NCBI GenBank assembly: GCA_024275165.1
Contig: JAJRZQ010000002.1
Coordinates: 76,679-140,678, forward strand
Length of the DNA: 64,000 bases
Direction: 5' to 3'
Source: a bacterium
GTDB taxonomy: Bacteria > SAR324 > XYD2-FULL-50-16
Position numbers and translations under genes: made by a program. The notes below the pieces were generated by a model. It saw only the letters and a list, made by a program, of their open reading frames with translations. It was not told the DNA's origin and searched no databases. This document shows positions 9,005-30,909 of the stretch, one piece after another (position 1 is the first letter of the stretch; every line of letters begins with the position of its first letter).

Positions 9005-9469
9005 TTAAGTCCCCATAACCGTATGCCAAAGCTCTTCATCGACATTATCCATAAATTGGCAGCCGATCAAAAACTGGTCGCCTCGGTCCACCACCCGCCG
9101 AACCTGCATCTCAAATTCCATGACTAAAATTTCACCGGCCGCGTCGTATTTGAAGGTCGCGGTGATGAGTTGGTCTGTGTCAAAGGTGTGATCCGCAAAA
9201 AAACTCAAGCCCCCAGCAGAGTAGTCGTTTAAATCGTATGCCGATTCTTGATCCGTATGGTTGTCGATCAAGGTGATCTGACCCGTCGCCTTAAAGCGTT
9301 TGTGGGCGCGCAAGCCCTCGTAATAGGCGTCGTCTTGCTCTTCCTTGCTGGTTGGGGGAGTGGATTCAGAATCTAAAAAGGTAATAATGACTTCACTATT
9401 TTCTTCCAGCTCTAAAGAGTTGGCGAGTTGAATGCGGCCATGCGTGTAGATGCCTTTGACGGTGATCAT
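9005..9469 (-). CDS. PilZ-domain (c-di-GMP binding) protein with N-terminal DUF104-like domain
   Basis: RAHKRF (RxxxR) and DYSAGGLSF (DxSxGG) motifs. Confidence 0.65.
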   Translation of the reverse strand: MITVKGIYTHGRIQLANSLELEENSEVIITFLDSESTPPTSKEEQDDAYYEGLRAHKRFKATGQITLIDNHTDQESAYDLNDYSAGGLSFFADHTFDTDQLITATFKYDAAGEILVMEFEMQVRRVVDRGDQFLIGCQFMDNVDEELWHTVMGT

Positions 9470-9601
9470 GGAAACCTAGTACAGTTGGATGGAGTTTTGT
9501 TTTATTTTGTTGCCTCTTCTTGGAAAAGTCAAGCAGAACTCAAGTGCCTAGGCGCTGCTAAAATGCCGTTATCTGGATAAATTTAAAAAAGTACTTGTGT
9601 T

Positions 9602-9644
9602 GGTTAGTCAAATGGTTAATATTAGTCGTATGACTAAAAAGAAA
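9602..9644 (+). promoter_or_regulatory. candidate TetR operator palindromes overlapping the TetR start codon
   Basis: TTAGTCA...TGACTAA inverted repeat and perfect 5-4-5 palindrome TAGTCgtatGACTA. Confidence 0.35.
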
Positions 9645-10211
9645 ACAAGCCGAGAAAAGCTAATCCAAGCCGCCCAAGACCTCTTGATCGAAAAGGCGGG
9701 GTTAGAGTTTACGGTGCGCGCGGTCGCGGCGAAGGCAGGGGTCAACCACGGCCTCATTCATCATTATTTTGCGGGAATCGAAGGCCTCATGTTGGAAGTG
9801 GTGGAACGCCTAACCCAAGAGGTCTATGCGAAGGTGCGAGAGGGGTTGCCCGCCACCAGGGATCGGGCTCTGCTCTTTACCCATCTAGTGAAGCAGGTGA
9901 GCCTCAACGGGAATTTTGCCCGTTTTTTATTGGCGGTAGCCCGTTTGAGCATCCAGATGCCCAAGGTAAAAGAAAAAATGATCGCCATCGCCAGCTTGCG
10001 GAGGCAGCAGTTTTCTCAGGTCTTGGGCTTGGGGCCTTTAGAAGATATGCAATTGGTGCAGGCCACCTTGTTGGGGAGCCTGCTTTTGTCTCAAGTGGAT
10101 CCGGAGATTAAACCGGAGAATATTCTCCAGACCTTGGCCGGACGAATGGAACAGGTCGAATTAAAGCTAAACCATCTTGAAGAGGGAACAGGGAATGAGA
10201 AGAAAAATTGA
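9630..10211 (+). CDS. TetR/AcrR family transcriptional regulator
   Basis: HTH region REKLIQAAQDLLIEKAGLEFTVRAVAAKAGVNHGLIHHYF; ATG at 9630 preferred over the ORF opening at 9597. Confidence 0.8.
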   Translation: MTKKKTSREKLIQAAQDLLIEKAGLEFTVRAVAAKAGVNHGLIHHYFAGIEGLMLEVVERLTQEVYAKVREGLPATRDRALLFTHLVKQVSLNGNFARFLLAVARLSIQMPKVKEKMIAIASLRRQQFSQVLGLGPLEDMQLVQATLLGSLLLSQVDPEIKPENILQTLAGRMEQVELKLNHLEEGTGNEKKN

Positions 10212-12588
10212 TTTGGGCTTTCGCGCTTACGCGGCTTTGGTGATTCGCTATAAATGGGCGAGTGTCTTATTGTTGCTCCTTCTGAGCGGTTTGATGTTAT
10301 CGGGGATGCCGAAGCTTCATTTCGACACGAGTACCGAGGGGTTTTTTCGCCCAGACGACCCCAACATGATTCGTTATGAGGCTTTTCGGGATCAGTTTGG
10401 CCGTGACGATATCGCTTTTATGCTTCTAGAGCCGAAAGAGGTTTTTTCTTCTTCTTTTTTAAAAACCCTACAGGCAATGCATCAAGAGATTGAGGAACGG
10501 CTACCCAATCTAGAGGATATCAACAGCTTGATCAACGCGCGCAAAACAGTGGGGAAAGAAGGCGCTCTCATCGTGGGGGATTTGCTCGAAGAGATGCCCC
10601 AAACCCCTGAAGAAATGGCGGATTTAAAAAATTATGTCCTCCATCAGCCTTTATATGAGAATTTTTTGATTTCAACCGATGCCAAGGTAACGGCGATTGC
10701 GATTCAAATGGGCACCTATAGCACCGAGGGGGTCGCGGTAGATAGCGATTTTGATTTAGACACGACCTCGCAAGCTCCCTCAGCGCAAAAACCCCTTTCG
10801 GATCATGAGATCACTCAGATTGTCAAGGTGCTGCATGAAATCAAGGAAAAGTATCAAGGCCCGGATTTACAGATTTATGTTACCGGAAGCCCGGTGGTGA
10901 CCGATTACCTGAAAGCGACCATGCAAAAAGACATGCCTCGCTTTTTGCTCAGCATGGTCGGTTTGATCGCGGTTTTTTTATTTTTGACCTTTCGTCGTTT
11001 TTCCGGGGTCTTGTTGCCTCTCTTAACGGTGCTTTTGAGTCTCGGGTATACTTTGGGGCTCATGGGGCACCTAGGGGTATCGGTAAAGCTGCCGACGATG
11101 ATTTTACCCAGTTTTATTCTCGCGGTGGGGATTGGTTCCAGTGTACATATTATGTCCATGTTTTATAAAGACTTTGTTAAGGAGAAGGGGAATAAGGAAA
11201 AGGCGATTCAAGATGCCTTGGAGCATTCCGGTTTGCCCGTTGCCATGACCAGCATTACCACCGCTGCGGGCTTGCTCTCTTTTGCCGGGGCGGATGTGGC
11301 CCCCATTGCGGATTTAGGCAGGGCCTCCAGCTTTGGGGTGATGGTGGCTTTGTTCATGACCATCACCTTGATCCCCAGTTTTTTGGCCATCTTGCCGGTG
11401 CGGAGCTTGAAGAAATCTGATTATAGCAATGAAGTGAGTACCGTAGACCGTATTTTGATGAAATTTGGGGACTGGTCTTACGACCACGCCGCCAAGGTCG
11501 TGGGGATCGCCGCCTTGATCGGACTGATGGCCGTGGCCGGTTTGTTTCGCCTGCAATTTAGTCACGATATCATGAAATGGTATCCGGAAGGTTCCGAGGT
11601 TCGCATTGCCAATGAAAAAATTGATCAAAGCCTAGGAGGGTCGGTCAATATAGAGATGGTTGTCGACGCGGGGAAGGAGAACGGGCAATATGATCCGGAG
11701 CTGCAAGTCGCCTTGGATGAGTTGGCCACCTATGCCTTGAATGTGACAAATAATCAGGGGAAAAGGGTCATCCATAAGACGACAAGCCTGTCGAGCATGT
11801 TAAAAGAGATCAATCAGGCGCTCCACGAAAACAAAAAAGAATTTTACGAGGTTCCCCCAGACCGAGAGATGATCGCTCAAGAGTTGCTGCTCTTTGAAAA
11901 CTCGGGGAGCGACGATATAGAAAATATTAGCGATAGTCTTTTTTCCAAATCGAGGTTTTCCGCCAAGTCGCAATGGCAGGACGCGGCAGGCTATCATATT
12001 GTCATTGAGCAGATTCGGACGAAGGCGAACGAGTTGATCGGCGACAAGGCTCAGGTCGGGTTCACGGGGCTGATGGTGCTTTTTGCCGAAACGGTTACCT
12101 TGATGATGAATACCATGATCCAAAGTTATCTCATTGCTTTTGCCTTGATCACCCTGTTGATGATTCTTTTGATTGGGCGGATTTCCACCGGCTTGTTGAG
12201 CATGATCCCGAATTTTTTCCCCATTTTGCTCACCTTGGGGCTCATGGGTTGGCTGGGGATTCCCTTAGATATGTTCACGCTTTTAATCGGCAGCATTGCC
12301 ATTGGGTTGGCGGTGGACGATACCATCCATTTTTTTCATAACTTTAGAAAGGTTTATGTGGAAACGGGGAGTGTCCGCCAAGCGATTGATACCACCTTGC
12401 TCACCGCGGGTAGGGCGATGTTGGTGACTTCGGTGGTGCTGACCTTGGGCTTTTTTATCTTTATGTTTGCCACCTTAAACAATTTATTTAGTTTTGGGCT
12501 CTTAACCGGTTTTACCTTGATTACCGCTTTTTTGGCGGACATTTTACTCGCGCCTGCTTTATTGACACTCACTCGGGGGAAAACCTGA
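10195..12588 (+). CDS. MMPL/RND-superfamily inner-membrane transporter (paralogue 1)
   Basis: ~800 aa, two blocks of 6 TM helices each preceded by large periplasmic loop, conserved GxGxDxxIH-like motif (AVGIGSSVHIM, AIGLAVDDTIHF); overlaps TetR stop. Confidence 0.8.
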   Translation: MRRKIDLGFRAYAALVIRYKWASVLLLLLLSGLMLSGMPKLHFDTSTEGFFRPDDPNMIRYEAFRDQFGRDDIAFMLLEPKEVFSSSFLKTLQAMHQEIEERLPNLEDINSLINARKTVGKEGALIVGDLLEEMPQTPEEMADLKNYVLHQPLYENFLISTDAKVTAIAIQMGTYSTEGVAVDSDFDLDTTSQAPSAQKPLSDHEITQIVKVLHEIKEKYQGPDLQIYVTGSPVVTDYLKATMQKDMPRFLLSMVGLIAVFLFLTFRRFSGVLLPLLTVLLSLGYTLGLMGHLGVSVKLPTMILPSFILAVGIGSSVHIMSMFYKDFVKEKGNKEKAIQDALEHSGLPVAMTSITTAAGLLSFAGADVAPIADLGRASSFGVMVALFMTITLIPSFLAILPVRSLKKSDYSNEVSTVDRILMKFGDWSYDHAAKVVGIAALIGLMAVAGLFRLQFSHDIMKWYPEGSEVRIANEKIDQSLGGSVNIEMVVDAGKENGQYDPELQVALDELATYALNVTNNQGKRVIHKTTSLSSMLKEINQALHENKKEFYEVPPDREMIAQELLLFENSGSDDIENISDSLFSKSRFSAKSQWQDAAGYHIVIEQIRTKANELIGDKAQVGFTGLMVLFAETVTLMMNTMIQSYLIAFALITLLMILLIGRISTGLLSMIPNFFPILLTLGLMGWLGIPLDMFTLLIGSIAIGLAVDDTIHFFHNFRKVYVETGSVRQAIDTTLLTAGRAMLVTSVVLTLGFFIFMFATLNNLFSFGLLTGFTLITAFLADILLAPALLTLTRGKT

Positions 12589-12605
12589 AATTAACTTGAC
12601 GGGTT

Positions 12606-12641
12606 TAGAGTAATTGCTCTAAGGCTAGAGCAATTACTCTA
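12606..12641 (+). promoter_or_regulatory. perfect 16-bp inverted repeat (hairpin/operator candidate) between the two MMPL genes
   Basis: tagagtaattgctcta-aggc-tagagcaattactcta. Confidence 0.5.
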
Positions 12642-12659
12642 ACTCGGTTTGAGGTTCCT

Positions 12660-15008
12660 ATGTCAAAATTCGTAAAAACTTGGGCAAATTTAGTGGTGGA
12701 AAAAAGAGGCTGGGTCATCGGCTTGACCCTGTTGTTGCTCTTTGCCTCCTTAGTGCCCATGAGAGGGCTCTATTTTGATAATTCCAACGAGATGTGGTTT
12801 GTCCAAGGCGACCCCGCCTTAACAGATTATGATGAACTGGTGGAAAAGTTCGGCGACAATGAATATGTCTTGGTGGGCATCGCCGCCAGGGAGGAAGACC
12901 CCGATATTTTTACCGCCCAAACATTTGACATCATTTATAAACTTACCGAGTTTTTGGAAAATCACAACTTTGTCACCAAGGTTCAATCTTTAACCAAGTA
13001 TCAGGTTATTCGGGGGGAAGACGATGAAATGGTGGTCGAGGATTTGGTTGCCGATAGCTTAGAAGATTTTGACGGCAGTGAGCAGGCGATGCAAAAGGCC
13101 CGCGAGATCATGGCCCATGAAACCTTGGCCCAGGGGCAGTTGATCACCAAGGACTTAAGGCATACCTTAATCAGCGCGCGAGCCGAGTATATTAAAGGCA
13201 GCACGGATCATCATGTGAAGCTGACCCGGGATTTAAAAAAGTTTATCGCGGAGCAAGAATTTGAAAAGTACGGTTATAAGATCTACTTGACCGGCACCCC
13301 TGTGGTCAATGAGGCCTTTTTTGCGGCCAGCATGGCAGACCAAAGTTTAAGCCTGCCCTTAATGTTCATTCTGATTATCGCTTTTTTGGTTTTTAGTTTT
13401 CGCACCCTGGCGGGGGCGACCTTGCCCCTTTTGGTGATTGTGGGTTCGGTGCTGCTCAGCGTGGCTTCCATCAGCTTGTTTGGCTGGGCCATGAATATGC
13501 TCAATGTGGTATTGCCCGTGATCTTAATGGCCGTAGGAATCGGGGATTCGGTGCATATTTTAATTGAGTTTTATCACTTTCGCAATCAAGGGGAAAATGC
13601 CAAAGAAGCGGCCAAAAAGGCCACGGAGATGCTTTTTGTCCCCTGTTTAAATACCAGCATCACCACCATGTTGGGTTTTTTGGCGATCAGCGTTTCAAAG
13701 TTGAGGCCCTTAAACGAGTTTGGGGTTGCCGCCTCCATTGGGGTCGGGATGGCGTTTATCTTGAGCGTAAGCATTTTGCCCGCTATCTTAAGTTTTTCTC
13801 AAGGCAAGGCGAATAAGGCTCGGCAAATCAGTGAAGATGGCTTCATCGCCCGGATGACCGATAGGCTGACCCATTATGTCTTTCGTCATCGCAAGGGGAT
13901 TGTGGGGGTTTGCCTGCTTTTGGTCGGGCTTTCGCTCTGGAGTGCCACCAGAATTGTCGTTGATTCCAACTTCATCAATTATTTTAAGGAAAAGAACGCA
14001 ACCCGACAAGATTTGGAATACTTTATCCAAGAGTATAACGGGGGGGTGTTTTTAGAATACATTTTCGATTCCGGTCGAAGCGCGAGCGAAGAAAAGAGTG
14101 GCGGTGCCTTAGAGCCGGCCTTGCTTACTCAAATCGACGCCTTTGCCACTTGGCTGAAACAACAACCCGAGGTGGGCAATACCTTCAGCATGGTGGATAT
14201 GCTCCAACAGATGAATCAGGCCATGCACGGCAATGATCCGGCTTATCGTATTCTGCCCGATTCTCGGCAGTTGGTTGCCCAGTACTTGCTGCTCTATTCC
14301 AACTCCGGCCCCGATGAAGACTTGTCGGACATGAAAACGGGAGACGAAAGGTATTTACGCCTCTCCCAGCGCTTGGATCATATGTCTTCAAATAAAATGC
14401 TGGGCTTTATAGAGCGAGTGAAGAAGAAGCTGGCAAGCGACTTCCCTCAATTGCAGGTGACCTTAACGGGGATGCCGGTACTCTATACCGATATGGACGC
14501 CTATATTCACAGTGGGATTATAAAATCCATGACCTTAGCGATTATCTCCATTGCCATCTGCTTTTTGGTGCTGTTGCGCTCCTTTAAGTATGGGGTTTTG
14601 GCGCTCATTCCCAGCCTGTTCCCGATTGTGTTGGCAGCGGGCTTGATGGGGGCGATGAGGGTGAACCTCAACTTTATCGCCATGGTGGTGGCTTCGGTTG
14701 CCTTTGGGATTGCCGTAGACAACTCGATCCATATTCTCAGCCGTTACATTAAACACCGCAAAAGGGAGGGGCGCGGCCGCTTTGACGCGATGGATACGGC
14801 GGTGAGCGAAACCGGTAGGGCCTTGGCCTTTACCACGATGATTCTCTTTTTTGGGTTCAGTATTTTAATGATTTCCACCTTTATCCCGAACATTTATTTG
14901 GGGTTTTTTACAGGGGTGATCTTGCTGATGGCGCTGATAGCCAGTTTGACCCTTTTGCCCGCGGTGATGTTCCTTTTTGGAGATTCCCCAGGCAAGAAGT
15001 CCTCTTAA
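12660..15008 (+). CDS. MMPL/RND-superfamily inner-membrane transporter (paralogue 2)
   Basis: 782 aa, same architecture as upstream paralogue (AVGIGDSVHIL, AFGIAVDNSIHIL). Confidence 0.8.
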   Translation: MSKFVKTWANLVVEKRGWVIGLTLLLLFASLVPMRGLYFDNSNEMWFVQGDPALTDYDELVEKFGDNEYVLVGIAAREEDPDIFTAQTFDIIYKLTEFLENHNFVTKVQSLTKYQVIRGEDDEMVVEDLVADSLEDFDGSEQAMQKAREIMAHETLAQGQLITKDLRHTLISARAEYIKGSTDHHVKLTRDLKKFIAEQEFEKYGYKIYLTGTPVVNEAFFAASMADQSLSLPLMFILIIAFLVFSFRTLAGATLPLLVIVGSVLLSVASISLFGWAMNMLNVVLPVILMAVGIGDSVHILIEFYHFRNQGENAKEAAKKATEMLFVPCLNTSITTMLGFLAISVSKLRPLNEFGVAASIGVGMAFILSVSILPAILSFSQGKANKARQISEDGFIARMTDRLTHYVFRHRKGIVGVCLLLVGLSLWSATRIVVDSNFINYFKEKNATRQDLEYFIQEYNGGVFLEYIFDSGRSASEEKSGGALEPALLTQIDAFATWLKQQPEVGNTFSMVDMLQQMNQAMHGNDPAYRILPDSRQLVAQYLLLYSNSGPDEDLSDMKTGDERYLRLSQRLDHMSSNKMLGFIERVKKKLASDFPQLQVTLTGMPVLYTDMDAYIHSGIIKSMTLAIISIAICFLVLLRSFKYGVLALIPSLFPIVLAAGLMGAMRVNLNFIAMVVASVAFGIAVDNSIHILSRYIKHRKREGRGRFDAMDTAVSETGRALAFTTMILFFGFSILMISTFIPNIYLGFFTGVILLMALIASLTLLPAVMFLFGDSPGKKSS

Positions 15009-15054
15009 ACCGCTTCTGAATTGATCAGAGGTTTTTTTAACCCTAACCACAAAG

Positions 15055-15870
15055 GTGATGATGAAGAGCAAATTCCTATTCTTTTTACTGGCCCTCGCTT
15101 TATGGGGGCTTTCGCCTCTTTATGCCTTGACCCCTACAGAGATTATTCACAAGGCGGACAAGTTGGATGATGGGGAAACCTCGATTAGTGAAATGACCAT
15201 GATCTTAATTGACTCCAGGGGGCAGCAACGAGTGAGGAAGATCAAAGGCTATCGGAAGGATTATGGGGAAGACAGCAAAAGCATCAGCTTTTTTTTAAGT
15301 CCCGCTGATGTGCGCAATACCGCTTTTTTAAGTTACGAGTACGATGATGTCAGCAAAGAAGACGATAATTGGCTCTATTTGCCCGCTCTGCGCAAGGTGA
15401 AACGCATTGCCAGTGGAAACAAAAAAGACAGTTTCATGGGAACCGATTTCACCTATCACGACATGAACGGTTTGGAAGTGGAAGAATGGGCATACAGTAT
15501 GGTCAAGGAGTCCGACACGGTGAACGGAAAGGATTGCTGGGTGATCGGCGCGGTTCCTCGCAAGGAGATCGCCAAGGCCGTGATCAAAGATACGAGCTAT
15601 GTCAAACGGGTGGTTTGGGTAAGAAAAGACAACTTCATGGCCGTACAGGCCAAAATCTGGATGAAAAAGGCCGGGAAGACTAAAATCATGAAGGCGAGCA
15701 AGATTGAGCGGATTCAAGGGATTTGGACCGCGCGGCAAGTGGAGATGAGTACCTTGGATCGTCGGGGCAGGCGCAGCCACTCCACGATTTTGAGGTTTGA
15801 CAACCTGCAATACAATAAAGGGGTGGGGGATGACATGTTCAACACCCAACGCATGGAGCGAGGTCTGTAA
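15055..15870 (+). CDS. LolA-like outer-membrane lipoprotein-sorting family periplasmic protein
   Basis: signal peptide MMMKSKFLFFLLALALWGLSPLYA, ~270 aa; family typically partnered with MMPL exporters. Confidence 0.55.
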   Translation: MMMKSKFLFFLLALALWGLSPLYALTPTEIIHKADKLDDGETSISEMTMILIDSRGQQRVRKIKGYRKDYGEDSKSISFFLSPADVRNTAFLSYEYDDVSKEDDNWLYLPALRKVKRIASGNKKDSFMGTDFTYHDMNGLEVEEWAYSMVKESDTVNGKDCWVIGAVPRKEIAKAVIKDTSYVKRVVWVRKDNFMAVQAKIWMKKAGKTKIMKASKIERIQGIWTARQVEMSTLDRRGRRSHSTILRFDNLQYNKGVGDDMFNTQRMERGL

Positions 15871-17309
15871 TGATCAAATGGTTTTGCTTGTTTTATTTGG
15901 TGGCTTTTTTGCCTACGGGCTTTGTGTCGGCTCAGGATTTCGCTGATTTGGATACGGGTTTTGACTTAAATACAGCGGTAGAAATTCAACCTTTAGAAGA
16001 GGTGGATGTTTTTGCTTCGAGTTCTTCTTTAGGCCAATTCTACGGCTTTGTGCGCGAAGAATGGGGCTACGCCCCACAAAAAAAAAGCAAGAATTGGGCG
16101 AAGCACCGCACGATCTTAAACCTCACCTATGATATCGCTTTAGGGGCGGATTGGAAAATACGGCTCAACGGCAACGCTTTTTACGATTTTGCCTATTCTT
16201 ATAACGGTAAGGAAAACTATACCCCAGAAACCTTAAAGACTTACGAAAGCGAGGTGGAGGCGAGGGATACCTTTATCGAAGGAGCGGTGAGCTCTTGGTT
16301 GAATGTGAGGGCCGGGCGGCAAATTATCGCCTGGGGGCAATCGGAAGTGTCGCAACTCAACGATCTGGCCAACCCTAGGGACTTGCGCGAATTGGGGGTG
16401 ATTGATATTGAAGACGCTCGGGTACAGGTGACGGCGGTCAAGTGGGCGGCGCTGCTTGGCGGCAGCGAGTTCAATCTGGTGACGATCCACGAGTTTCGCC
16501 CCGACAAAACACCGAGCGCGGGGAGCGAGTTTGATTTTTTAGCTCCCCTGCGGGCTCAGGCGAATATTTTGGACGCGCCCAAACCCGACCCTAAGATCGA
16601 GCTTTTGGCTCGTTGGTTCATCCCCTACAACGGGGGGGACTTGGCGTTTTACTATGGGGATGTTTACCAAGATCAGGCCACCCTGGCCTTTCATTCCTTT
16701 GACGCGAAAACCCAGTCCTTGACCTTGGAGTCGAATTACCTGCCCATTCAATCCATGGGGTTTGCGGCCAATCAGGTTTGGGGGGCCTGGCTCTTTCGTT
16801 TGGAGGCGGCAAAAAAGAAAGGGGTTCCGATCCAGCGCAGCGACCTCCAAACTCAACTTGCCCAGGGGCTGAAAACGACCCCGCCTCCCGCGGATTTGGT
16901 TTATGGGGCGGACTTGGGTCTGGTGGAAAGTTATGCCTTGAAGGAGCAGGTTCAATTGGCTTTGGGGGTTGAGTATTCGGGGTACAATGATGTTACTTTT
17001 TCTTTTGAGATCTCGGGAGATCAAATTTTGGATTATCAAGAGAACCTAAAAACTAAAAAATTCAACGGGATCAGCACCTTCATCTTGAGTCACCAGGCCT
17101 TTAACGACAACTTGACCACCCGTTTTTTATGGTTCCACTTTACAGACTCCAACGGAGAGCTGTACCGCTTAAGCTCAGATTACTCCATTATGGACGCGGT
17201 TTCTTTAGGAGGGGGCTTTGTCTATTATCAACCGATCAATGAGCAGAGCTTGCTCTACCCCTTTAAAGACAACAGCCGCTTGAATCTGACCGGAAAATAT
17301 AGCTTTTAA
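15870..17309 (+). CDS. outer-membrane beta-barrel protein (hypothetical)
   Basis: signal peptide, alternating amphipathic strands, C-terminal ...YSF aromatic terminus; start overlaps upstream stop. Confidence 0.55.
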   Translation: MIKWFCLFYLVAFLPTGFVSAQDFADLDTGFDLNTAVEIQPLEEVDVFASSSSLGQFYGFVREEWGYAPQKKSKNWAKHRTILNLTYDIALGADWKIRLNGNAFYDFAYSYNGKENYTPETLKTYESEVEARDTFIEGAVSSWLNVRAGRQIIAWGQSEVSQLNDLANPRDLRELGVIDIEDARVQVTAVKWAALLGGSEFNLVTIHEFRPDKTPSAGSEFDFLAPLRAQANILDAPKPDPKIELLARWFIPYNGGDLAFYYGDVYQDQATLAFHSFDAKTQSLTLESNYLPIQSMGFAANQVWGAWLFRLEAAKKKGVPIQRSDLQTQLAQGLKTTPPPADLVYGADLGLVESYALKEQVQLALGVEYSGYNDVTFSFEISGDQILDYQENLKTKKFNGISTFILSHQAFNDNLTTRFLWFHFTDSNGELYRLSSDYSIMDAVSLGGGFVYYQPINEQSLLYPFKDNSRLNLTGKYSF

Positions 17310-17884
17310 TGAACAATAAAGAAAAAATTCTACTCGCGGCCCTTGCGCTCTTTAACGAAAAAGGCACCAAGGGGGTCAGCACGAATCATATTGCCAAGGC
17401 AGCCGGGGTGAGCCCGGGAAACCTCTATTATTACTTTAAGAATAAAGAAGATATTATCTTAGAGATTTATAAAACGATGGTGATCGAGTTTGACTGTACG
17501 ATGGGCGATACTCGAGAGATCACCCTAGAGGGCTTAGAGCGGCATTTTGCCCAGATTATTGAGGTACAATGGCAGTTTTTGTTTCTCATGCGCGAGTCGC
17601 ATAGCTTAATTGAGCGAGATGAGCGGCTGAAGGCGATTTTTCAAGAACAGCAAGAAAGAAGATTAAAGGAAATCGCGGACGAGCTTTGCCAAGGCATCCA
17701 AGCGGGCTTGTTGCGGCCCTTGGCTGAAGAGGCGGTGCGGGAGTTGGCCGAAGTCTTGTGGATTGTCTCTTTGTTTTATATCCCCTTTGTCGCCAGTCGA
17801 GGGGAGGAAATCACCAAAGAGACGGTCACCACCAGTGTGGCCAGGATGCGCTCGCTGCTCAACCCCTACCTCATCTTGCCCTAA
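17309..17884 (+). CDS. TetR/AcrR family transcriptional regulator
   Basis: LAALALFNEKGTKGVSTNHIAKAAGVSPGNLYYYFKNKEDI; ATG overlaps stop of OMP gene (taATGa). Confidence 0.85.
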   Translation: MNNKEKILLAALALFNEKGTKGVSTNHIAKAAGVSPGNLYYYFKNKEDIILEIYKTMVIEFDCTMGDTREITLEGLERHFAQIIEVQWQFLFLMRESHSLIERDERLKAIFQEQQERRLKEIADELCQGIQAGLLRPLAEEAVRELAEVLWIVSLFYIPFVASRGEEITKETVTTSVARMRSLLNPYLILP

Positions 17885-26642: not shown

Positions 26643-28055
26643 ATGGACGCTAAGTTACGCATACGCCTTCTACAGGTGATTCAGCGGCATCGCCCGGTGC
26701 GGTTGTTGGTCGCGGGGGATATCATATTGGATAAATACACCTGGGGAGAGGTGGAACGAATCAGCCCCGAGGCGCCGATTCCGGTGGTCAAGGTGGTCAA
26801 GGAAGAATACCGACTCGGGGGCTCGGCCTCTGTGGTGGCCAATTTAGCGGCCTTAGACTGTCAGGTGCTCCCGCTGGGATGGGTGGGGCAAGACGCGGCA
26901 GGGGATCAGGTTTTGCGGCTATTCCAGGATTTAAAGGTGGAGGTCGCCGGGGTCTTGCGCCTCCAACGGGCCACCACGCTGAAGGATCGGCTTTTAACCA
27001 AGCAACAACAATTGTTGAGAGTGGACTTTGAAGCACCAACGGCAAAGGATACAGGCCTGCAACAGGCCTTGCGGGACAAGGCGGAAAGCTTATTGCGACA
27101 GGCCGACGCGGTGGTGCTTTCCGATTACGCCAAAGGGGTGCTTTCTCCAGGGCTTTTAAGTTTTCTCATTCAAGGGGCTGAGGCCAAACAAATCCCGGTG
27201 ATCTGCGACCCCGGTAAGGGGGTGCCCCTAGAGCATTACCAAGGGGTCACTACCTTAAAGCCCAATCGAATGGAAACCGAAGGGGCTACGGGGATGAAGA
27301 TTCAGGATCAAGCCAGTTTATTGGCCGCTGCGAAGGCGGTGAAAGAAAAAACAGGGGCGCAATTTCTTTCTCTCAGTTTAGATAAAGAAGGCATTCTTTA
27401 TTATCAAGATGAAACTCATTGGGAGGTTTTAGCTACAGAGGCAAGAGAGGTCTATGATGTCACCGGGGCAGGGGATATGGTGGTGAGCGTGATCGCCTGC
27501 CTTTTAGCCCAGCAGGTGCCCCCGATTGAGGCCTTAGCCCTGGCCAATGTGGCGGCGGAAATCGAGATCGGGCATATGGGCGTGGTGCCCATTCCCTTTA
27601 GCGAAATCCGAGATTTTTTGGTGCAGGGCCGCTTGGAGCGAAAAATCACCACTATCGAAGAAATCTTAGCCGAAAAGGGAGAGGGAGAGCAATTGCTCTT
27701 TACCAACGGTTATTTCGACCAACTCTCCGCTGGGCACTTGCGTTTTTTGATCGAGGCGGCTCGTTTACCCGGTAAATTGGTGGTGGCCATCAACAGTGAC
27801 GCGAGCATTCAGGCCCGCAAGGGGGAATTGCCTTTGTTGACGCAAGCGGACCGGGCCCGTTTGTTGGCCAGTTTAGAAAAGGTTTGGAAGGTTTTGATCT
27901 TTGAAGAAGAGGACGCGAGTCCGTTGATTATAAAACTTCGGCCCGAAGTGGTGGTGAAGGGGGAGCGTTTTCGGGGGCGGGAACTCTCCGAATCGCAAGC
28001 CATTGCTCAGGTGGGGGCGAAGATCGAATATATCCCCCACTTTAGTTATTCTTAA
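26643..28055 (+). CDS. hldE: bifunctional D-glycero-beta-D-manno-heptose-7-phosphate kinase / heptose-1-phosphate adenylyltransferase
   Basis: ribokinase-like domain I (VAGDIILDKYTWGEVERISPEAPIPV) + cytidylyltransferase domain II (TNGYFDQLSAGHLRFL). Confidence 0.9.
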   Translation: MDAKLRIRLLQVIQRHRPVRLLVAGDIILDKYTWGEVERISPEAPIPVVKVVKEEYRLGGSASVVANLAALDCQVLPLGWVGQDAAGDQVLRLFQDLKVEVAGVLRLQRATTLKDRLLTKQQQLLRVDFEAPTAKDTGLQQALRDKAESLLRQADAVVLSDYAKGVLSPGLLSFLIQGAEAKQIPVICDPGKGVPLEHYQGVTTLKPNRMETEGATGMKIQDQASLLAAAKAVKEKTGAQFLSLSLDKEGILYYQDETHWEVLATEAREVYDVTGAGDMVVSVIACLLAQQVPPIEALALANVAAEIEIGHMGVVPIPFSEIRDFLVQGRLERKITTIEEILAEKGEGEQLLFTNGYFDQLSAGHLRFLIEAARLPGKLVVAINSDASIQARKGELPLLTQADRARLLASLEKVWKVLIFEEEDASPLIIKLRPEVVVKGERFRGRELSESQAIAQVGAKIEYIPHFSYS

Positions 28056-29331: not shown

Positions 29332-30909
29332 TTATTTCGCGCAGCGAAATCCCACATCCTTCCAAGCGTAGTTGGGCTTACTGCTGGCGCGGTGCCAGGT
29401 CGTGGCATGATCTTTGGTTTTCGCCCAGGAGCCGCCGCGAATGACCTTTTCTCGGTTGATCTGAGGAGAGTCGAAATTGGAACCGGGGTAACGGGCTAGG
29501 CTGGAGCTCACCCATTCGCGCACATTTCCCGCCATCTGCTGGACCCCATAGGGGCTGATATCCGCCTGGGCCTGATCCACCGGCAAGGGTTTATGCTTTC
29601 CCGATTCCAAGGTGCGGGCTTTACGGGGGTTGAACCCGTTGCCCCAGGGGTAGGTTAAACCGTTTTCCCCTCTCGCCGCCTTTTCCCATTCCACTTCTTT
29701 AGGGAGTCGTTTTCCTAAGGACTTGCAATAGCGCTCCGCCTCGATCCAGGTTACATTTACCACGGGCAGGGACTCAGCTCCGGCGGGGATTTGCCGATTG
29801 CGCCAATGGGGTGGGGGTCGTTTGCGAAAGCGCCTCAGATACTCGGCGTATTTTTGGTTGGAAACCTCGGTTTCATCTAGATAAAACTCGCGGAGTTTGA
29901 CCTGAAACTCCGGTTTAGAAATTTGCGGCCCTTGGTTGCTTCCCATGATAAATTTTCCCTTAGGGATGGAGATCATCCCCGCAATGGGCTTGGCGGTTGA
30001 TTTTTTATAAGAGGAGCGGTTTGTTTGCCCGAAGTGGATTAAATCGGCCCATTCGATCACCCCATTATAGATATTCAAGAGTTTTAAGCTAGCGAGCCAA
30101 CGGCCATTTTTCCTAGAAACCTTTCCGTAGATAAAGGCGTCCACCCCATAAAGCTCCCCCATGCGCTTGGCTTTGGATTCGTCGATGAAGTCGCTCATGG
30201 AGAGTTTTTGTTCTTCTATAATAAGGGCTAGGTTTTCGCGGTCCACCACCTGTAAGCCGCTATCTTTGGTTAAGGCGGTGGAGAGAAAATCAGCGAGGAG
30301 GCTGGAGTCAAAGGGGCTTTGGATATTCCAAAAAGCGATTTGGTTGACCTTGTTTTGCCGCAGGCGAGAGAGGTCTTTGCGTAAGCTTAAGGTCACCGCC
30401 TCCGCCAGACTGCTGACGGCTAGGGTTTCTGCCTTTAAGGCGGTGAGTTGAAAGATGTCGGCCCATACAATGGCGGAGGATTCCACATCAATCGCCTTCA
30501 TGACTAGGGTATCGTGGTAGTAGCGGCCATAGACAAAAAGATCGACCCCTAAGAGTTTGCCGAGTTCTTTATAGGTGTCTTGGCTCACCATGCCCGAGAG
30601 ATTGAATTTTTGTTCTTGCAGGATCAGGTTCATCTTGCTGCGGTCGATCACGCGAAAGGCACGGGATTTAACCAACGCCACATTGGTGTAGTCGATGAGT
30701 TCGTTAATTTTTTCTTGGTTTAAGGGCCCGGCAATGCGGGAAAAGGCGATGGTACCGTATTTGCGGTTGGCGACTTGGCTCAAGGAACTCGCGATACGCT
30801 GGCTTAGGTTTTCAAACTCCAAAGCACTTAAGGTACCAGGACATAAAAACAACAGAGTAAATAAAAATAAAAGGCTTAGCCTGAAAGGAAGCGGTGAGCT
30901 CGTTGTCAT
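29332..30909 (-). CDS. secreted protein: two CsgG/LpoB-like repeats fused to a formylglycine-generating-enzyme (SUMF1/FGE-sulfatase) domain
   Basis: C-terminal PKGKFIMGSN...EVEWEKAARGENGLTYPWGN...RGGSWA; N-terminal repeated DRxxLxLIxxEQK...LGKLLGVDxFVYG. Confidence 0.7.
   Translation of the reverse strand: MTTSSPLPFRLSLLFLFTLLFLCPGTLSALEFENLSQRIASSLSQVANRKYGTIAFSRIAGPLNQEKINELIDYTNVALVKSRAFRVIDRSKMNLILQEQKFNLSGMVSQDTYKELGKLLGVDLFVYGRYYHDTLVMKAIDVESSAIVWADIFQLTALKAETLAVSSLAEAVTLSLRKDLSRLRQNKVNQIAFWNIQSPFDSSLLADFLSTALTKDSGLQVVDRENLALIIEEQKLSMSDFIDESKAKRMGELYGVDAFIYGKVSRKNGRWLASLKLLNIYNGVIEWADLIHFGQTNRSSYKKSTAKPIAGMISIPKGKFIMGSNQGPQISKPEFQVKLREFYLDETEVSNQKYAEYLRRFRKRPPPHWRNRQIPAGAESLPVVNVTWIEAERYCKSLGKRLPKEVEWEKAARGENGLTYPWGNGFNPRKARTLESGKHKPLPVDQAQADISPYGVQQMAGNVREWVSSSLARYPGSNFDSPQINREKVIRGGSWAKTKDHATTWHRASSKPNYAWKDVGFRCAK

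What the first reader, a model, noticed from the sequence alone, without database searches (positions are those of the whole stretch)
9597..17884. Six-gene TetR / MMPL / MMPL / LolA-like / OM beta-barrel / TetR operon, AT-richer than its surroundings: candidate envelope-spanning lipid or drug export system
Two tandem paralogous MMPL (RND-superfamily) inner-membrane transporters are followed by a periplasmic LolA-like 'lipoprotein-sorting' protein and an outer-membrane beta-barrel with a C-terminal aromatic residue (...YSF). The genes are packed with overlapping stop/start codons (TetR stop overlaps MMPL1; 15870 and 17309 are shared stop/start bases). A TetR regulator sits at each end. Together these cover all three compartments of a trans-envelope exporter, but none of them is a classic AcrAB-TolC component (no membrane-fusion protein). 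By eye the segment is visibly more AT-rich than the flanking cob and leuS regions, which would fit horizontal acquisition. MMPL+LolA-like pairings are known from comparative genomics but the substrate is generally unknown; this is the most 'system-like' novel candidate in the window.
Basis: partly seen in the sequence, partly recalled or inferred. Interest (0 to 1): 0.65.

Follow-up and report, generated by a model that had tools for sequence, protein, structure and literature searches.

The report
Envelope exporter with LolA-like carrier
This is a conserved chromosomal gene set for two inner-membrane RND pumps, a periplasmic LolA-like lipid carrier and an 18-strand outer-membrane barrel, switched by two TetR repressors. 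It is a compact, two-pump variant of a widespread envelope transport system whose substrate is still unknown, and it is not a horizontally acquired island.

Summary
The six genes, their order, their Pfam families and the stop/start overlaps are all real.

- **Base composition.** The lower GC (48.6% against 51.7%) lies only in codon positions 1 and 2. GC3 is normal. A relative with 66% protein identity has the same genes on both flanks, so there is no sign of horizontal acquisition.
- **Operon structure.** The cluster is probably not one operon. Two different pairs of 16-bp palindromes, each just after a TTGAC-type -35 element, lie upstream of tetR1 and in the 71-nt mmpL1-mmpL2 gap. Both pairs are conserved in relatives. 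This implies two units: tetR1-mmpL1 and mmpL2-lolA-like-DUF1302-tetR2.

The core is a three-gene module, pump then carrier then barrel. It was complete in 46 of 57 evaluable loci, which came from many phyla. It includes Porphyromonas gingivalis PG1178-81, whose carrier is the crystallised "LolA3" (9TP6). That operon is strongly induced by haem or iron limitation and by NO.

The two pumps here belong to two old clades (28% identity). Elsewhere, each clade serves the carrier and barrel alone.

The most likely function is proton-driven export of a hydrophobic or amphiphilic molecule through a carrier hand-off to the barrel. The substrate and the direction of transport are unproven.

This is a new variant of a known but uncharacterised kind, of moderate interest.

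The parts
9595..9622 (+). Putative promoter P_A: -35-like TTGTGT (9595-9600), 16-nt spacer, -10-like TAATAT (9617-9622)
   Evidence: Read from the sequence. Relatives have TTGACC or TTGACT at the same position just before the operator. This is an inference; the consensus scan did not list it.
9604..9637 (.). Operator pair A: TTAGTCAAATGGTTAA and TTAGTCGTATGACTAA (consensus TTAGTCA-N2-TGACTAA, two copies)
   Evidence: Found as inverted repeats. The window holds only these 2 matches, against 0.07 expected by chance. The same pair sits at the same place in L001 and L084. L082 has TTATACA-N2-TGTATAA twice instead.
9630..10211 (+). tetR1: TetR-family repressor (193 aa from ATG 9630; the longest ORF starts at GTG 9597)
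   Evidence: Pfam TetR_N 2.7e-09. The orthologues in four relatives share only 22-28% identity but keep the helix-turn-helix motif AGVNHGL..YF.
10195..12588 (+). mmpL1: RND-superfamily pump, MMPL/HAE3-like, 797 aa, about 12 transmembrane helices and two periplasmic loops of about 200 aa
   Evidence: Pfam MMPL 118 bits. NCBIfam HAE3 TIGR00921 scores 209 bits, below its cut-off of 352. Hydropathy profile. It falls in the 'MMPL1 clade' of the NJ tree. Motifs: TM4 GIGSSVH, TM10 AVDDTIH.
12596..12601 (+). Putative -35 element TTGACG of the internal promoter P_B
   Evidence: Read from the sequence. TTGAC is conserved just before the operator in L001, L082 and L084.
12605..12642 (.). Operator pair B: TTAGAGTAATTGCTCTAA and CTAGAGCAATTACTCTAA (half-sites TAGAG/CTCTA)
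   Evidence: Arms of 17 nt are 100% complementary. There are 2 exact matches against 0.04 expected. The half-sites are conserved, two copies each, in the same intergenic gap of L001, L082 and L084, while the central 6 nt vary. As RNA the region would also form a hairpin of -29.5 kcal/mol.
12660..15008 (+). mmpL2: second RND/MMPL pump, 782 aa, 28% identical to MmpL1
   Evidence: Pfam MMPL 143 bits; HAE3 218 bits, below cut-off. Full-length alignment to MmpL1. It falls in the 'MMPL2 clade' together with single-copy pumps of Gammaproteobacteria and Flavobacteriales. Motifs: TM4 GIGDSVH, TM10 AVDNSIH.
15012..15038 (+). Weak hairpin followed by seven T between mmpL2 and the lolA-like gene (possible attenuator; uncertain)
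   Evidence: Reported by the terminator scan, which found 21 sites against 14.6 expected. Folding energy -10.9 kcal/mol; not conserved in L001 or L082.
15058..15870 (+). lolA-like carrier (PF17131/TP_0789-like), 270 aa, signal peptidase I-type signal peptide (...SPLYA|LTP), no lipobox
   Evidence: Pfam 1.1e-53. PDB sequence hits: 9TP6 LolA3-PG 1e-44, 4Z48, 3BK5. AlphaFold2 model pLDDT 90. Foldseek TM-score 0.77/0.86 to 9TP6, then LolB, LolA, RseB and LprG.
15870..17309 (+). DUF1302-family outer-membrane beta-barrel, 479 aa: signal peptide, disordered acidic N-terminus (about residues 22-51), C-terminal KYSF
17309..17884 (+). tetR2: TetR-family repressor with PF13972 C-terminal domain, 191 aa
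   Evidence: Pfam TetR_N 1.3e-17 and TetR 5.8e-20. The helix-turn-helix is almost invariant in four relatives. The closest solved structures, 3NNR and 3RH2, are deposited only as TetR-family or TetR-like transcriptional regulators, so they do not indicate a ligand.

Best explanation
The locus encodes a compact trans-envelope transporter for a hydrophobic or amphiphilic small molecule. It is built from three co-evolving parts.

**Parts and proposed mechanism**
- An MMPL/HAE3-like RND pump uses the proton gradient to extract the substrate from the inner membrane (inferred from family precedent).
- A soluble periplasmic LolA-fold carrier takes the substrate into its hydrophobic half-barrel (fold shown, binding inferred).
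- A dedicated 18-strand DUF1302 barrel receives the substrate at the outer membrane (fold shown, hand-off inferred).
- No membrane-fusion protein or TolC duct is involved.

**What is special in this lineage**
- Two anciently diverged pumps share one carrier and one barrel.
- The genes form two units, each with its own promoter and a double palindromic operator: tetR1-mmpL1 (operator A) and mmpL2-lolA-like-DUF1302-tetR2 (operator B).
- Each unit is presumably repressed by its own TetR until a ligand binds. Two different signals can therefore switch on two pumps that use a common exit route.

The cluster is a vertically inherited chromosomal feature of a SAR324-like lineage. The substrate is unknown.
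For: **The three parts belong together**
- Among 80 loci from one-genome-per-species contigs, 58 of 67 with room upstream have an MMPL gene directly upstream of the carrier.
- 62 of 68 with room downstream have a DUF1302 gene directly downstream.
- 46 of 57 with room on both sides have the full triad.
- The loci come from SAR324, Desulfobacterota, Campylobacterota, Gamma- and Alphaproteobacteria, Bacteroidota, Spirochaetales, Myxococcota and Cloacimonadales.
- No other gene family is consistently linked to the triad.
- The TAATG overlaps imply translational coupling.

**Folds**
- Carrier: pLDDT 90, TM-score 0.77/0.86 to LolA3-PG, then LolB, LolA, RseB and LprG.
- Pumps: RND topology with small periplasmic loops. 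The TM10 motif VDD.xH is nearly invariant family-wide.

**Two transcription units**
- Operator pairs A and B are unique in the window and conserved in position in relatives whose intergenic DNA has otherwise diverged. Each follows a TTGAC -35 element.
- The TetR2 helix-turn-helix and the B half-sites are both nearly invariant across the four relatives.
- A TetR gene flanks the cassette on the same strand in at least 27 of 80 loci.

**Pump phylogeny**
- Both pump clades are elsewhere the sole pump next to the carrier and barrel.

**Literature**
[quoted passage not shown] The operon is induced 13-136-fold by iron depletion (PMC10434189) and has log2 fold change -7.4 to -8.1 in excess haemin (PMC10470040).
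- In the related AmeABCD system, deletion lowers monoterpene tolerance and raises Nile Red accumulation (PMC6394551).
- The DUF1302, DUF1329, BNR and RND genes are cofit (bioRxiv 10.1101/072470).
- AlphaFold-Multimer gives a DUF1302-DUF1329 complex with ipTM 0.84 (PMC13499233).
Against: - No substrate, binding, interaction or transport direction was tested here or in the literature for the compact cassette.
- Several homologous systems are induced under nutrient-acquisition conditions: n-C28 alkane in T. oleivorans (PMC6304351), haem or iron starvation in P. gingivalis, and Tween 20 or butyl stearate in P. putida (bioRxiv 10.1101/2020.07.04.188060). These would also fit uptake.
- The most conserved barrel motif is rich in charged residues, which is not what one expects for a purely hydrophobic cargo.
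- The assignment of each operator to its TetR rests on position and conservation only.
- The B pair could instead act as an RNA hairpin of -29.5 kcal/mol.
- If mmpL1 needs the carrier and barrel, placing them in a separately repressed unit is awkward unless there is read-through or co-induction.
- The only apparent pump-carrier fusion in my sample (L028) is a frameshift artefact.
Confidence: 0.5

Rival explanations
1. It is an uptake route for a hydrophobic nutrient. The DUF1302 barrel lets a poorly soluble compound (long-chain alkane, fatty ester, haem-like amphiphile) into the periplasm. The LolA-like protein carries it across, and the RND protein inserts it into, or passes it across, the inner membrane.
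For: - T. oleivorans TOL_3187 rises 42-fold and TOL_3188 is expressed only on n-C28 (PMC6304351).
- P. putida DUF1302/DUF1329 mutants lose fitness on Tween 20 and butyl stearate (bioRxiv 10.1101/2020.07.04.188060).
- P. gingivalis PG1178-80 rises together with the Hmu haem-uptake genes under haem or iron limitation and in a hemH mutant (PMC10434189, PMC13096392).
- The barrel resembles substrate-specific uptake channels of the Occ/OprD family.
Against: - Characterised RND/MMPL pumps such as HpnN and AmeD are described as moving substrates outward (PMC6394551), and the closest solved chains are named exporters, MmpL3 and MmpL4.
- AmeABCD deletion increases dye accumulation and lowers solvent tolerance (PMC6394551).
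- Local TetR repressors are typical of efflux systems: the best characterised NCBIfam matches of TetR2 include MtrR and AcrR.
- No catabolic genes are consistently linked to the cassette.
Confidence: 0.2
2. It is a housekeeping outer-membrane lipid conveyor. The system moves an endogenous envelope lipid from the inner to the outer membrane, as HpnN does for hopanoids, and is part of normal envelope biogenesis rather than an inducible efflux device.
For: - The cluster sits in a core, syntenic chromosomal position among housekeeping genes.
- It is distributed across a very wide range of diderm phyla.
- The pumps' best named NCBIfam relatives include HpnN at 138 bits.
- Price et al. proposed 'export of a cell wall component' for the DUF1302/DUF1329/BNR/RND set (bioRxiv 10.1101/072470).
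- A PF17131 protein, TP0789, is among the abundant proteins of the reduced-genome T. pallidum (PMC5015957).
Against: - Two dedicated TetR repressors with double operators point to conditional expression.
- P. gingivalis expression swings about 100-fold with haem, iron and NO (PMC10434189, PMC11018363).
- No lipid-biosynthesis genes travel with the cassette.
- F. johnsoniae lolA3 deletion had no effect on gliding or type IX secretion (PMC11885536).
- HpnN membership is far below cut-off: 138 against 752 bits.
Confidence: 0.2
3. It is a lipoprotein-sorting factor, as the database name says. The LolA-like protein is an extra LolA that ferries lipoproteins to the outer membrane.
For: - Source annotations read 'outer membrane lipoprotein-sorting protein'.
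- The protein has a LolA/LolB-type fold.
Against: - The gene is linked to an RND pump and a barrel, not to LolCDE or LolB.
- The crystallised homologue LolA3-PG binds LolB-PG only very weakly and lacks both the LolA arginine and the LolB leucine features (PMC13103446).
- F. johnsoniae lolA3 is dispensable for lipoprotein-dependent gliding and type IX secretion (PMC11885536).
Confidence: 0.03
4. One reading: a recently horizontally acquired, AT-rich six-gene drug or lipid efflux operon.
For: - The cluster GC of 48.6% is in the lowest 4% of equal-sized windows.
- The genes are tightly packed and co-directional.
Against: - GC3 of 0.60-0.63 equals that of neighbouring genes.
- L084, at 66% carrier identity, has the same genes on both sides: RNase E/G, a 421-aa ORF, a 108-aa ORF and PilZ upstream; cobT/U/S, PHP and a response regulator downstream.
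- L001 and L082 share the upstream flank.
- The 64-kb window has no tRNA gene, and no mobile-element domain appeared among the flanking ORFs scanned.
- An internal promoter and operator argue against a single operon.
Confidence: 0.03
5. It is one six-gene operon after all. The 38-nt palindrome between mmpL1 and mmpL2 acts as an RNA stem-loop (a processing, stability or attenuation element) and not as a DNA operator with its own promoter.
For: - The two B sites are exact reverse complements in the window and would fold into a hairpin of -29.5 kcal/mol.
- In L001 and L082 the central bases of site 2 are again the reverse complement of site 1, even though the centres differ between species.
- The promoter scan did not list a sigma-70 site there.
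Against: - A TTGAC hexamer lies 3-4 nt before a B site in all four relatives.
- In L084 the two sites are split by that hexamer and their centres are not complementary, so no equivalent long hairpin forms.
- The same architecture (TTGAC, then two 16-bp palindromes) occurs upstream of tetR1 with a different sequence.
- A 16-bp palindrome is the form expected of a TetR-family operator (general knowledge of the family, not tested here).
Confidence: 0.2

Closest known systems
[quoted passage not shown]
   Same: - The same four gene types in the same order: TetR, pump, carrier, barrel.
- The carrier is the best PDB match of the window protein: 1e-44 by sequence, 33% identity and TM-score 0.77/0.86 by structure.
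- I confirmed the context. A 99%-identical LolA3 copy lies between an MMPL gene (27% identical to MmpL1, with the same GLAVDDTIHFF motif) and a DUF1302-like gene. P. macacae has TetR, MMPL, a 136-aa ORF, a methyltransferase, LolA3, DUF1302 and two ABC genes.
[quoted passage not shown]
   Different: - It has one pump and one TetR. The window has two of each, in two units.
- Two ABC transporter genes follow the Porphyromonas cassette.
- The barrel is shorter: 411 aa in P. macacae, 23% identity.
- It is induced by haem or iron limitation and by NO stress. The inducers of the window cluster are unknown.
- Its substrate is also unknown.
- The two LolA3 papers contain no occurrence of 'MMPL' or 'RND', and the F. 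johnsoniae paper none of 'DUF1302' either, so they do not discuss this linkage.
AmeABCD of Castellaniella defragrans and the DUF1302/DUF1329/BNR/RND sets (Shewanella Sama_1588-1591; P. putida PP_0765/0766 with PP_2018/2019)
   Same: - A DUF1302 barrel, a LolA-superfamily periplasmic protein and an HAE3-type RND pump, without a membrane-fusion protein or TolC.
- Linked by cofitness and co-expression.
- Associated with hydrophobic compounds.
- Sources: PMC6394551, bioRxiv 10.1101/072470, bioRxiv 10.1101/2020.07.04.188060.
   Different: - That system has four components: a long DUF1329 protein of about 450 aa and a BNR/Ycf48-like propeller. The gene order is barrel, DUF1329, BNR, RND.
- Here the carrier is the short PF17131 form of 270 aa. 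It matches only 79 of the 368 positions of the DUF1329 model.
- No propeller gene is present here, and the order is pump, carrier, barrel.
- The regulators there are LuxR or AraC type (PMC13499233). Here they are TetR.
Thalassolituus oleivorans TOL_3187/TOL_3188
   Same: MMPL and LolA-like domains followed by a porin-like gene, which is the compact cassette. It is induced on n-C28 alkane (PMC6304351).
   Different: It is reported as a single fused MMPL-LolA-like polypeptide, which I could not verify. The only fusion-like ORF in my sample (L028) is a frameshift artefact. In the window the genes are separate.
HpnN (hopanoid transporter, HAE3 family)
   Same: - It is among the closest solved RND structures: 5KHN and 6WU0 at 7e-09 to 3e-09.
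- It has the same overall size and topology.
- It moves a lipid outward from the inner membrane.
   Different: - HpnN is described as working without co-transcribed periplasmic or outer-membrane partners (PMC6394551).
- The HpnN model scores 138 bits against a cut-off of 752, so these pumps are not HpnN.
AcrAB-TolC-type tripartite RND efflux pumps (HAE1)
   Same: - An RND pump driven by the proton gradient.
- A local TetR repressor.
- Three compartments covered.
   Different: - There is no membrane-fusion protein and no TolC-family duct.
- The pumps are about 790 aa with periplasmic loops of about 200 aa, against about 1050 aa for HAE1 pumps.
- ACR_tran matches are weak (20-36 bits) and cover only short stretches of the 1021-position model.
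- The outer-membrane part is an 18-strand monomer-type barrel.
LolCDE-LolA-LolB lipoprotein pathway
   Same: The logic is shared: an inner-membrane extractor, a soluble LolA-fold carrier and an outer-membrane acceptor. The carrier fold is also shared.
   Different: - The energy source is an RND pump, not an ABC transporter.
- The acceptor is a beta-barrel, not LolB.
- The LolA3 homologue binds LolB only very weakly (PMC13103446).

Membership tests
Pfam MMPL (PF03176) / RND superfamily | Score above the Pfam gathering threshold; 12-transmembrane topology with two periplasmic loops | tested here: met
   118.5 and 142.8 bits against a cut-off of 20.5. Hydropathy gives TM1, a loop, TM2-6, TM7, a loop and TM8-12.
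HAE3 family (NCBIfam TIGR00921) | Score at or above the curated cut-off of 351.9 bits | tested here: not met
   209.3 and 218.3 bits. This is the best-scoring named subfamily, full length for MmpL2, but it is below cut-off. 'HAE3-like' is the safe wording.
HpnN hopanoid transporter (TIGR03480 / NF052374) | Score at or above the cut-off (751.85 or 1100 bits) | tested here: not met
   138 bits and 79-85 bits.
PF17131 LolA_like / TP_0789-like | Pfam gathering score; open half-barrel fold of the LolA superfamily | tested here: met
   182.1 bits against 30. The AlphaFold2 model matches 9TP6, 4Z48 and 3BK5 with TM-scores 0.72-0.86.
DUF1302 (PF06980) | Pfam gathering score; outer-membrane beta-barrel with signal peptide and C-terminal aromatic residue | tested here: met
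   92.4 bits against 23.2, covering model positions 85-452 of 541. It is an 18-strand-type barrel, has a signal peptide and ends in KYSF.
Compact TetR-MMPL-PF17131-DUF1302 cassette (the P. gingivalis PG1178-81 type) | Pump, carrier and barrel adjacent, co-directional and in that order | tested here: met
   The window has this order. 46 of 57 evaluable loci have the same triad, including Porphyromonas.
Compact TetR-MMPL-PF17131-DUF1302 cassette (the P. gingivalis PG1178-81 type) | A single pump and a single transcription unit | tested here: not met
   The window has two pumps and two TetR genes, with an internal promoter and operator. This architecture is shared only with close relatives L001, L082 and L084.
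AmeABCD / DUF1302-DUF1329-BNR-RND four-gene system | A full-length DUF1329 periplasmic protein of about 450 aa | tested here: not met
   The carrier is 270 aa. The DUF1329 model is matched only at positions 132-210 of 368.
AmeABCD / DUF1302-DUF1329-BNR-RND four-gene system | A BNR/Ycf48-like beta-propeller protein in the cluster | tested here: not met
   None of the six genes, the flanking ORFs or the other large window ORFs scanned carries such a domain. A copy elsewhere in the genome cannot be excluded.
Tripartite HAE1 RND efflux pump (AcrAB-TolC type) | A membrane-fusion (adaptor) protein and a TolC-family outer-membrane factor | tested here: not met
   No such domains occur in the cluster. 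The barrel is Occ/AlgE-like and not TolC-like.
Lol lipoprotein pathway | The carrier works with LolCDE and LolB | not testable with these tools
   No lolCDE or lolB is adjacent. In the literature, the closest homologue LolA3-PG binds LolB-PG only very weakly (PMC13103446).
TetR-family local repressor with palindromic operator | N-terminal helix-turn-helix domain plus a palindromic operator overlapping the promoter of the regulated unit | tested here: inconclusive
   The helix-turn-helix domains are met. Conserved double palindromes lie next to TTGAC elements. Binding was not tested and an RNA-hairpin reading remains open.

The most novel reading that the evidence does not exclude
The pump-carrier-barrel triad is a distinct, phylum-spanning class of trans-envelope conveyor. 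An RND pump hands an amphiphilic cargo to a soluble LolA-fold chaperone, and the chaperone docks on its own 18-strand barrel. This would be an RND-powered counterpart of the Lol and Lpt logic, separate from the adaptor-and-TolC duct.

In this lineage the system has become a 'two inputs, one exit' device. Two anciently diverged pumps, each under its own ligand-sensing TetR, feed one shared carrier and barrel.

A further speculative extension is that the cargo is tetrapyrrole- or iron-related. The P. gingivalis cassette is one of that organism's strongest haem/iron-starvation genes, and the best PDB sequence hit of MmpL1 is the siderophore exporter MmpL4.
Probability: 0.3. Interest if true: 0.7.

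Novelty: new variant of a known kind. Interest (0 to 1): 0.45.

Why it matters
Most RND export across the Gram-negative envelope is understood through the adaptor-and-TolC duct. This cassette has neither part, yet relatives of its carrier turned up in at least 592 stretches of a one-genome-per-species collection. It occurs in many phyla, including a major oral pathogen where it is among the most strongly regulated loci.

The analysis links three separate strands of literature to one module:
- the 'orphan' LolA3 crystal structure;
- the PG1178-81 haem, iron and NO stimulon;
- the DUF1302/DUF1329 'dark' barrel proteins.

It also yields testable regulatory parts: two operator motifs and two TetR sensors, whose ligands would reveal the substrates. 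If the carrier-shuttle mechanism is right, it adds a new route for moving hydrophobic molecules to or through the outer membrane. It may also offer a target in Bacteroidota pathogens.

Tried and rejected
1. **Horizontal acquisition.** Rejected on GC3, two-sided synteny in L084, and the absence of tRNA genes and Rfam matches.
2. **Pump-carrier fusion as Rosetta-stone evidence.** The 976-aa ORF in L028 looked like a fusion. The true pump C-terminus continues in another frame, so it is a frameshift artefact. The published TOL_3187 fusion could not be checked.
3. **Conserved neighbours that might reveal a substrate.** Clustering all flanking ORFs of 81 loci gave only lineage-specific neighbours such as two-component systems, ABC transporters and UbiH-like genes.
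4. **TetR ligands from solved structures.** The closest entries (3NNR, 3RH2, 3GZI) carry only generic TetR-family names, which give no hint of a ligand.
5. **Hairpin plus seven T between mmpL2 and the carrier gene as a conserved attenuator.** It is not conserved in relatives.
6. **Source contig.** Exact look-up of the window's own carrier protein failed; the product is not on record.
7. **PDB sequence search with the barrel.** No hit. Only fold comparison worked.
8. **Rfam scan of the whole window.** No riboswitch or other RNA family was found anywhere, including upstream of the cluster.

Full report
**1. Observation**

ORF listing and translation confirm six co-directional genes:

| Gene | Coordinates | Note |
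|---|---|---|
| tetR1 | 9597/9630-10211 | likely start ATG 9630 |
| mmpL1 | 10177/10195-12588 | likely start ATG 10195, overlapping the tetR1 stop by 17 nt |
| mmpL2 | 12660-15008 | |
| lolA-like | 15055/15058-15870 | likely start ATG 15058 |
| DUF1302 barrel | 15870-17309 | |
| tetR2 | 17309-17884 | |

- NCBIfam places both pumps nearest the HAE3 subfamily (209 and 218 bits). That is below its cut-off of 352, and far below the HpnN cut-offs.
- The two one-base overlaps are TAATG.
- The flanks are a divergent PilZ gene upstream and convergent cobT/cobU/cobS downstream.
- The wider window encodes housekeeping functions: RsgA, LeuS, Map, RNase E/G, UbiD, HtpG and FliG.
- The nearest named relatives are SAR324-cluster genomes and 'Deltaproteobacteria bacterium TL4'.

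**2. Base composition and mobility**

- The cluster is 48.6% GC and the rest of the window 51.7%. Only 4% of equal-sized sliding windows are as low.
- GC3 of the six genes (0.60-0.63) is typical of the other 32 large ORFs (0.53-0.70). The deficit lies in codon positions 1 and 2, as expected for hydrophobic membrane proteins and Lys/Asn-rich periplasmic proteins.
- Locus L084, whose carrier is 66% identical, has the same six genes and the same neighbours on both sides.
- L001 and L082 share the upstream flank but differ downstream.
- The window has no tRNA gene and no Rfam match, and no mobile-element domain appeared among the flanking ORFs scanned.
- The cluster is therefore vertically inherited in this lineage, and the horizontal-transfer idea is not supported.

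**3. The conserved core**

- I scanned one genome per species with an alignment of carrier homologues. At least 592 stretches encode relatives.
- In the best 80 loci, an MMPL gene lies directly upstream in 58 of 67 cases with room, and a DUF1302 gene directly downstream in 62 of 68. The full triad occurs in 46 of 57.
- The exceptions are mostly rearrangements, with the pump after the barrel or divergent.
- The taxa are SAR324, Desulfobacterota, Campylobacterota, Gamma- and Alphaproteobacteria, Bacteroidota, Spirochaetales, Myxococcota, Cloacimonadales and others.
- No further gene family travels with the triad across phyla.
- A TetR gene on the same strand, either before the pump or after the barrel, occurs in at least 27 of 80 loci.
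- The functional unit is thus pump, carrier and barrel, often with a TetR.

**4. The parts**

- **Carrier.**
  - It has a signal peptidase I-type signal peptide and no lipobox.
  - The AlphaFold2 model (pLDDT 90) superposes on LolA3 of P. gingivalis (9TP6), 4Z48, 3BK5 and 3BUU. More distantly it matches LolB, LolA, RseB and LprG.
- **Barrel.**
  - It has a disordered acidic N-terminal stretch.
  - Its most conserved motif, GRQIIAWGQSE..NPRD.RE..D.EDAR, lies at the end of strand 5 and in the long loop that follows. By strand parity this is the position of the constriction loop L3 in porins, which is an inference.
- **Pumps.**
  - They are 28% identical over their full length and have RND topology with periplasmic loops of about 200 aa.
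  - In a neighbour-joining tree of 77 cassette pumps they fall into two clades, and each clade is elsewhere the only pump beside the carrier and barrel.
  - TL4, the closest species in the scan, has only the MmpL1 type.
  - TM10 carries a nearly invariant VDD.xH motif, while the TM4 Asp is often missing. MmpL1 has Ser in TM4 and Asp-Asp in TM10. MmpL2 has Asp in TM4 and Asp-Asn in TM10. Each therefore keeps two carboxylates.

**5. Regulation**

- Two pairs of 16-bp palindromes stand out.
  - Pair A (9604-9637, TTAGTCA-N2-TGACTAA twice) lies at the tetR1 start.
  - Pair B (12605-12642, TAGAG-N6-CTCTA twice) fills the 71-nt gap between mmpL1 and mmpL2, directly after TTGACG.
- Each pair is unique in the window: 0.07 and 0.04 matches are expected by chance.
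- In L001, L082 and L084 the same architecture recurs at both places: TTGAC, then two palindromes.
  - The B half-sites are invariant.
  - Site A is altered to TTATACA-N2-TGTATAA in L082.
- The TetR2 helix-turn-helix is almost invariant. TetR1 is much more divergent.
- I infer two units, tetR1-mmpL1 and mmpL2-lolA-like-DUF1302-tetR2, each repressed by its own TetR.
- The rival reading is that pair B is an RNA hairpin of -29.5 kcal/mol. It is weakened by L084, where the two sites are separated by the -35 element and are not mutually complementary.
- Cassettes in Gammaproteobacteria and Flavobacteriales that carry a 3' TetR show a different repeated GTTAAC-type palindrome upstream of the pump gene. 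This fits TetR control as a general feature.

**6. Comparison with what is known**

- **Four-gene relative.**
  - AmeABCD of Castellaniella has a DUF1302 barrel, a long DUF1329 protein, a BNR/Ycf48-like propeller and an HAE3 pump. Its loss lowers monoterpene tolerance and raises Nile Red accumulation (PMC6394551).
  - The same four gene types are cofit in Shewanella and other bacteria (bioRxiv 10.1101/072470).
  - They matter for growth on Tween 20 and butyl stearate in P. putida (bioRxiv 10.1101/2020.07.04.188060).
  - A DUF1302-DUF1329 complex is predicted with ipTM 0.84 (PMC13499233).
- **How the window cluster differs.** It has a short PF17131 carrier, no propeller, the reverse gene order and TetR control.
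- **The exact compact form, P. gingivalis PG1178-81.**
  - It is a TetR-regulated unit induced by NO (PMC11018363) and by iron or haem limitation (PMC10434189, PMC10470040). It is called an 'uncharacterized transport system' (PMC13096392).
  - Its carrier is the LolA3 whose structure was published in 2026 without an assigned function and which binds LolB only very weakly (PMC13103446).
  - I confirmed this context directly.
  - The two LolA3 papers contain no occurrence of 'MMPL' or 'RND'.
- **Other occurrences.**
  - Prevotella intermedia has several such operons induced 40- to about 220-fold by low iron (PMC10434189).
  - T. oleivorans TOL_3187/3188 is induced on n-C28 (PMC6304351).

**7. 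Mechanism and verdict**

- *Shown here:* the folds, the linkage of the three parts, the vertical inheritance, the two pump clades and the conserved operator-like sites.
- *Inferred:* proton-driven extraction by the pump, hand-off to the carrier, delivery to the barrel, outward direction, and which TetR binds which operator.
- *Unknown:* the substrate. Induction of homologues by alkanes, fatty esters and haem or iron starvation keeps an uptake role alive.
- I rate export of a hydrophobic or amphiphilic molecule through this route at about 0.5. Uptake and housekeeping lipid export are each at about 0.2.
- The finding is a real and coherent system, but it is neither a new kind nor a mobile island. 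It is a two-pump, two-repressor variant of a widespread, named but biochemically uncharacterised cassette.

Noticed in passing
window 9005-9469 (- strand) and the intergenic region 9470-9629: A PilZ-domain gene is transcribed divergently from tetR1. It keeps this position in L001, L082 and L084. Operator pair A lies in the shared intergenic region, so the PilZ gene might be co-regulated, which would link the cluster to c-di-GMP signalling.
   Followed up: partly
window 9617-9637: The likely tetR1 start (ATG 9630) has no Shine-Dalgarno sequence. It lies inside the second A operator and about 7 nt after the predicted -10 element (TAATAT), which suggests a leaderless mRNA. In L001 and L084 the start lies downstream of the operator, and L001 has an AGGAG ribosome-binding site.
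   Followed up: partly
L086 (1-3424) and L087 (3883-13556): The crystallised P. gingivalis LolA3 (9TP6, function unassigned) is encoded between an MMPL pump gene and a DUF1302-like barrel gene. P. macacae adds a 136-aa ORF and a methyltransferase between pump and carrier, and two ABC transporter genes after the barrel. The two LolA3 papers contain no occurrence of 'MMPL' or 'RND'.
   Followed up: yes
L028 7838-10765: An apparent 976-aa MMPL-LolA-like fusion ORF in a Pseudomonadales metagenome-assembled genome is a frameshift artefact. The genuine pump C-terminus continues in another frame.
   Followed up: yes
window 11100-11130 and 12300-12330 (MmpL1); 13510-13545 and 14740-14775 (MmpL2), approximate: The transmembrane acidic residues are complementary. 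MmpL1 has GIGSSVH in TM4 and AVDDTIH in TM10. MmpL2 has GIGDSVH and AVDNSIH. Family-wide, the TM10 Asp-Asp is nearly invariant while the TM4 Asp is usually absent. This suggests a proton relay centred on TM10.
   Followed up: partly
window 15012-15038: A hairpin (-10.9 kcal/mol) followed by seven T lies between mmpL2 and the carrier gene. It could lower read-through, but it is absent from L001 and L082.
   Followed up: partly
L010, L016, L017, L018, L021, L024, L039: about 30-120 nt upstream of the pump genes: Cassettes of Gammaproteobacteria and Flavobacteriales have repeated GTTAAC-type palindromes upstream of the pump gene, for example AGTTAACAGTGTTAACT and GTGTTAACTTTACGCGGTTAACA. Most of these cassettes carry a TetR gene after the barrel. 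This is an operator-like motif different from A and B.
   Followed up: partly
L001 9299-9979: An extra 226-aa ORF with no Pfam hit lies between mmpL2 and the carrier gene in this relative. It is absent from the window, L082 and L084.
   Followed up: no
window 27685-27700: GAGAGCAATTGCTCTT is a palindrome two mismatches from operator B. It lies inside the PfkB/cytidylyltransferase (HldE-like) gene and is probably a chance match.
   Followed up: no
window 29332-30909 (- strand): This 525-aa protein has an unusual domain combination: LpoB-like and CsgG-like regions followed by an FGE-sulfatase (formylglycine-generating enzyme-like) domain.
   Followed up: no
window 15933-16022 (barrel residues about 22-51): The mature N-terminus of the barrel is acidic, disordered and of low confidence. 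In relatives this region is expanded into long Asp/Glu-rich 'GFG[DE]' repeats. Its role is unknown; it may be a periplasmic tether or docking segment.
   Followed up: no
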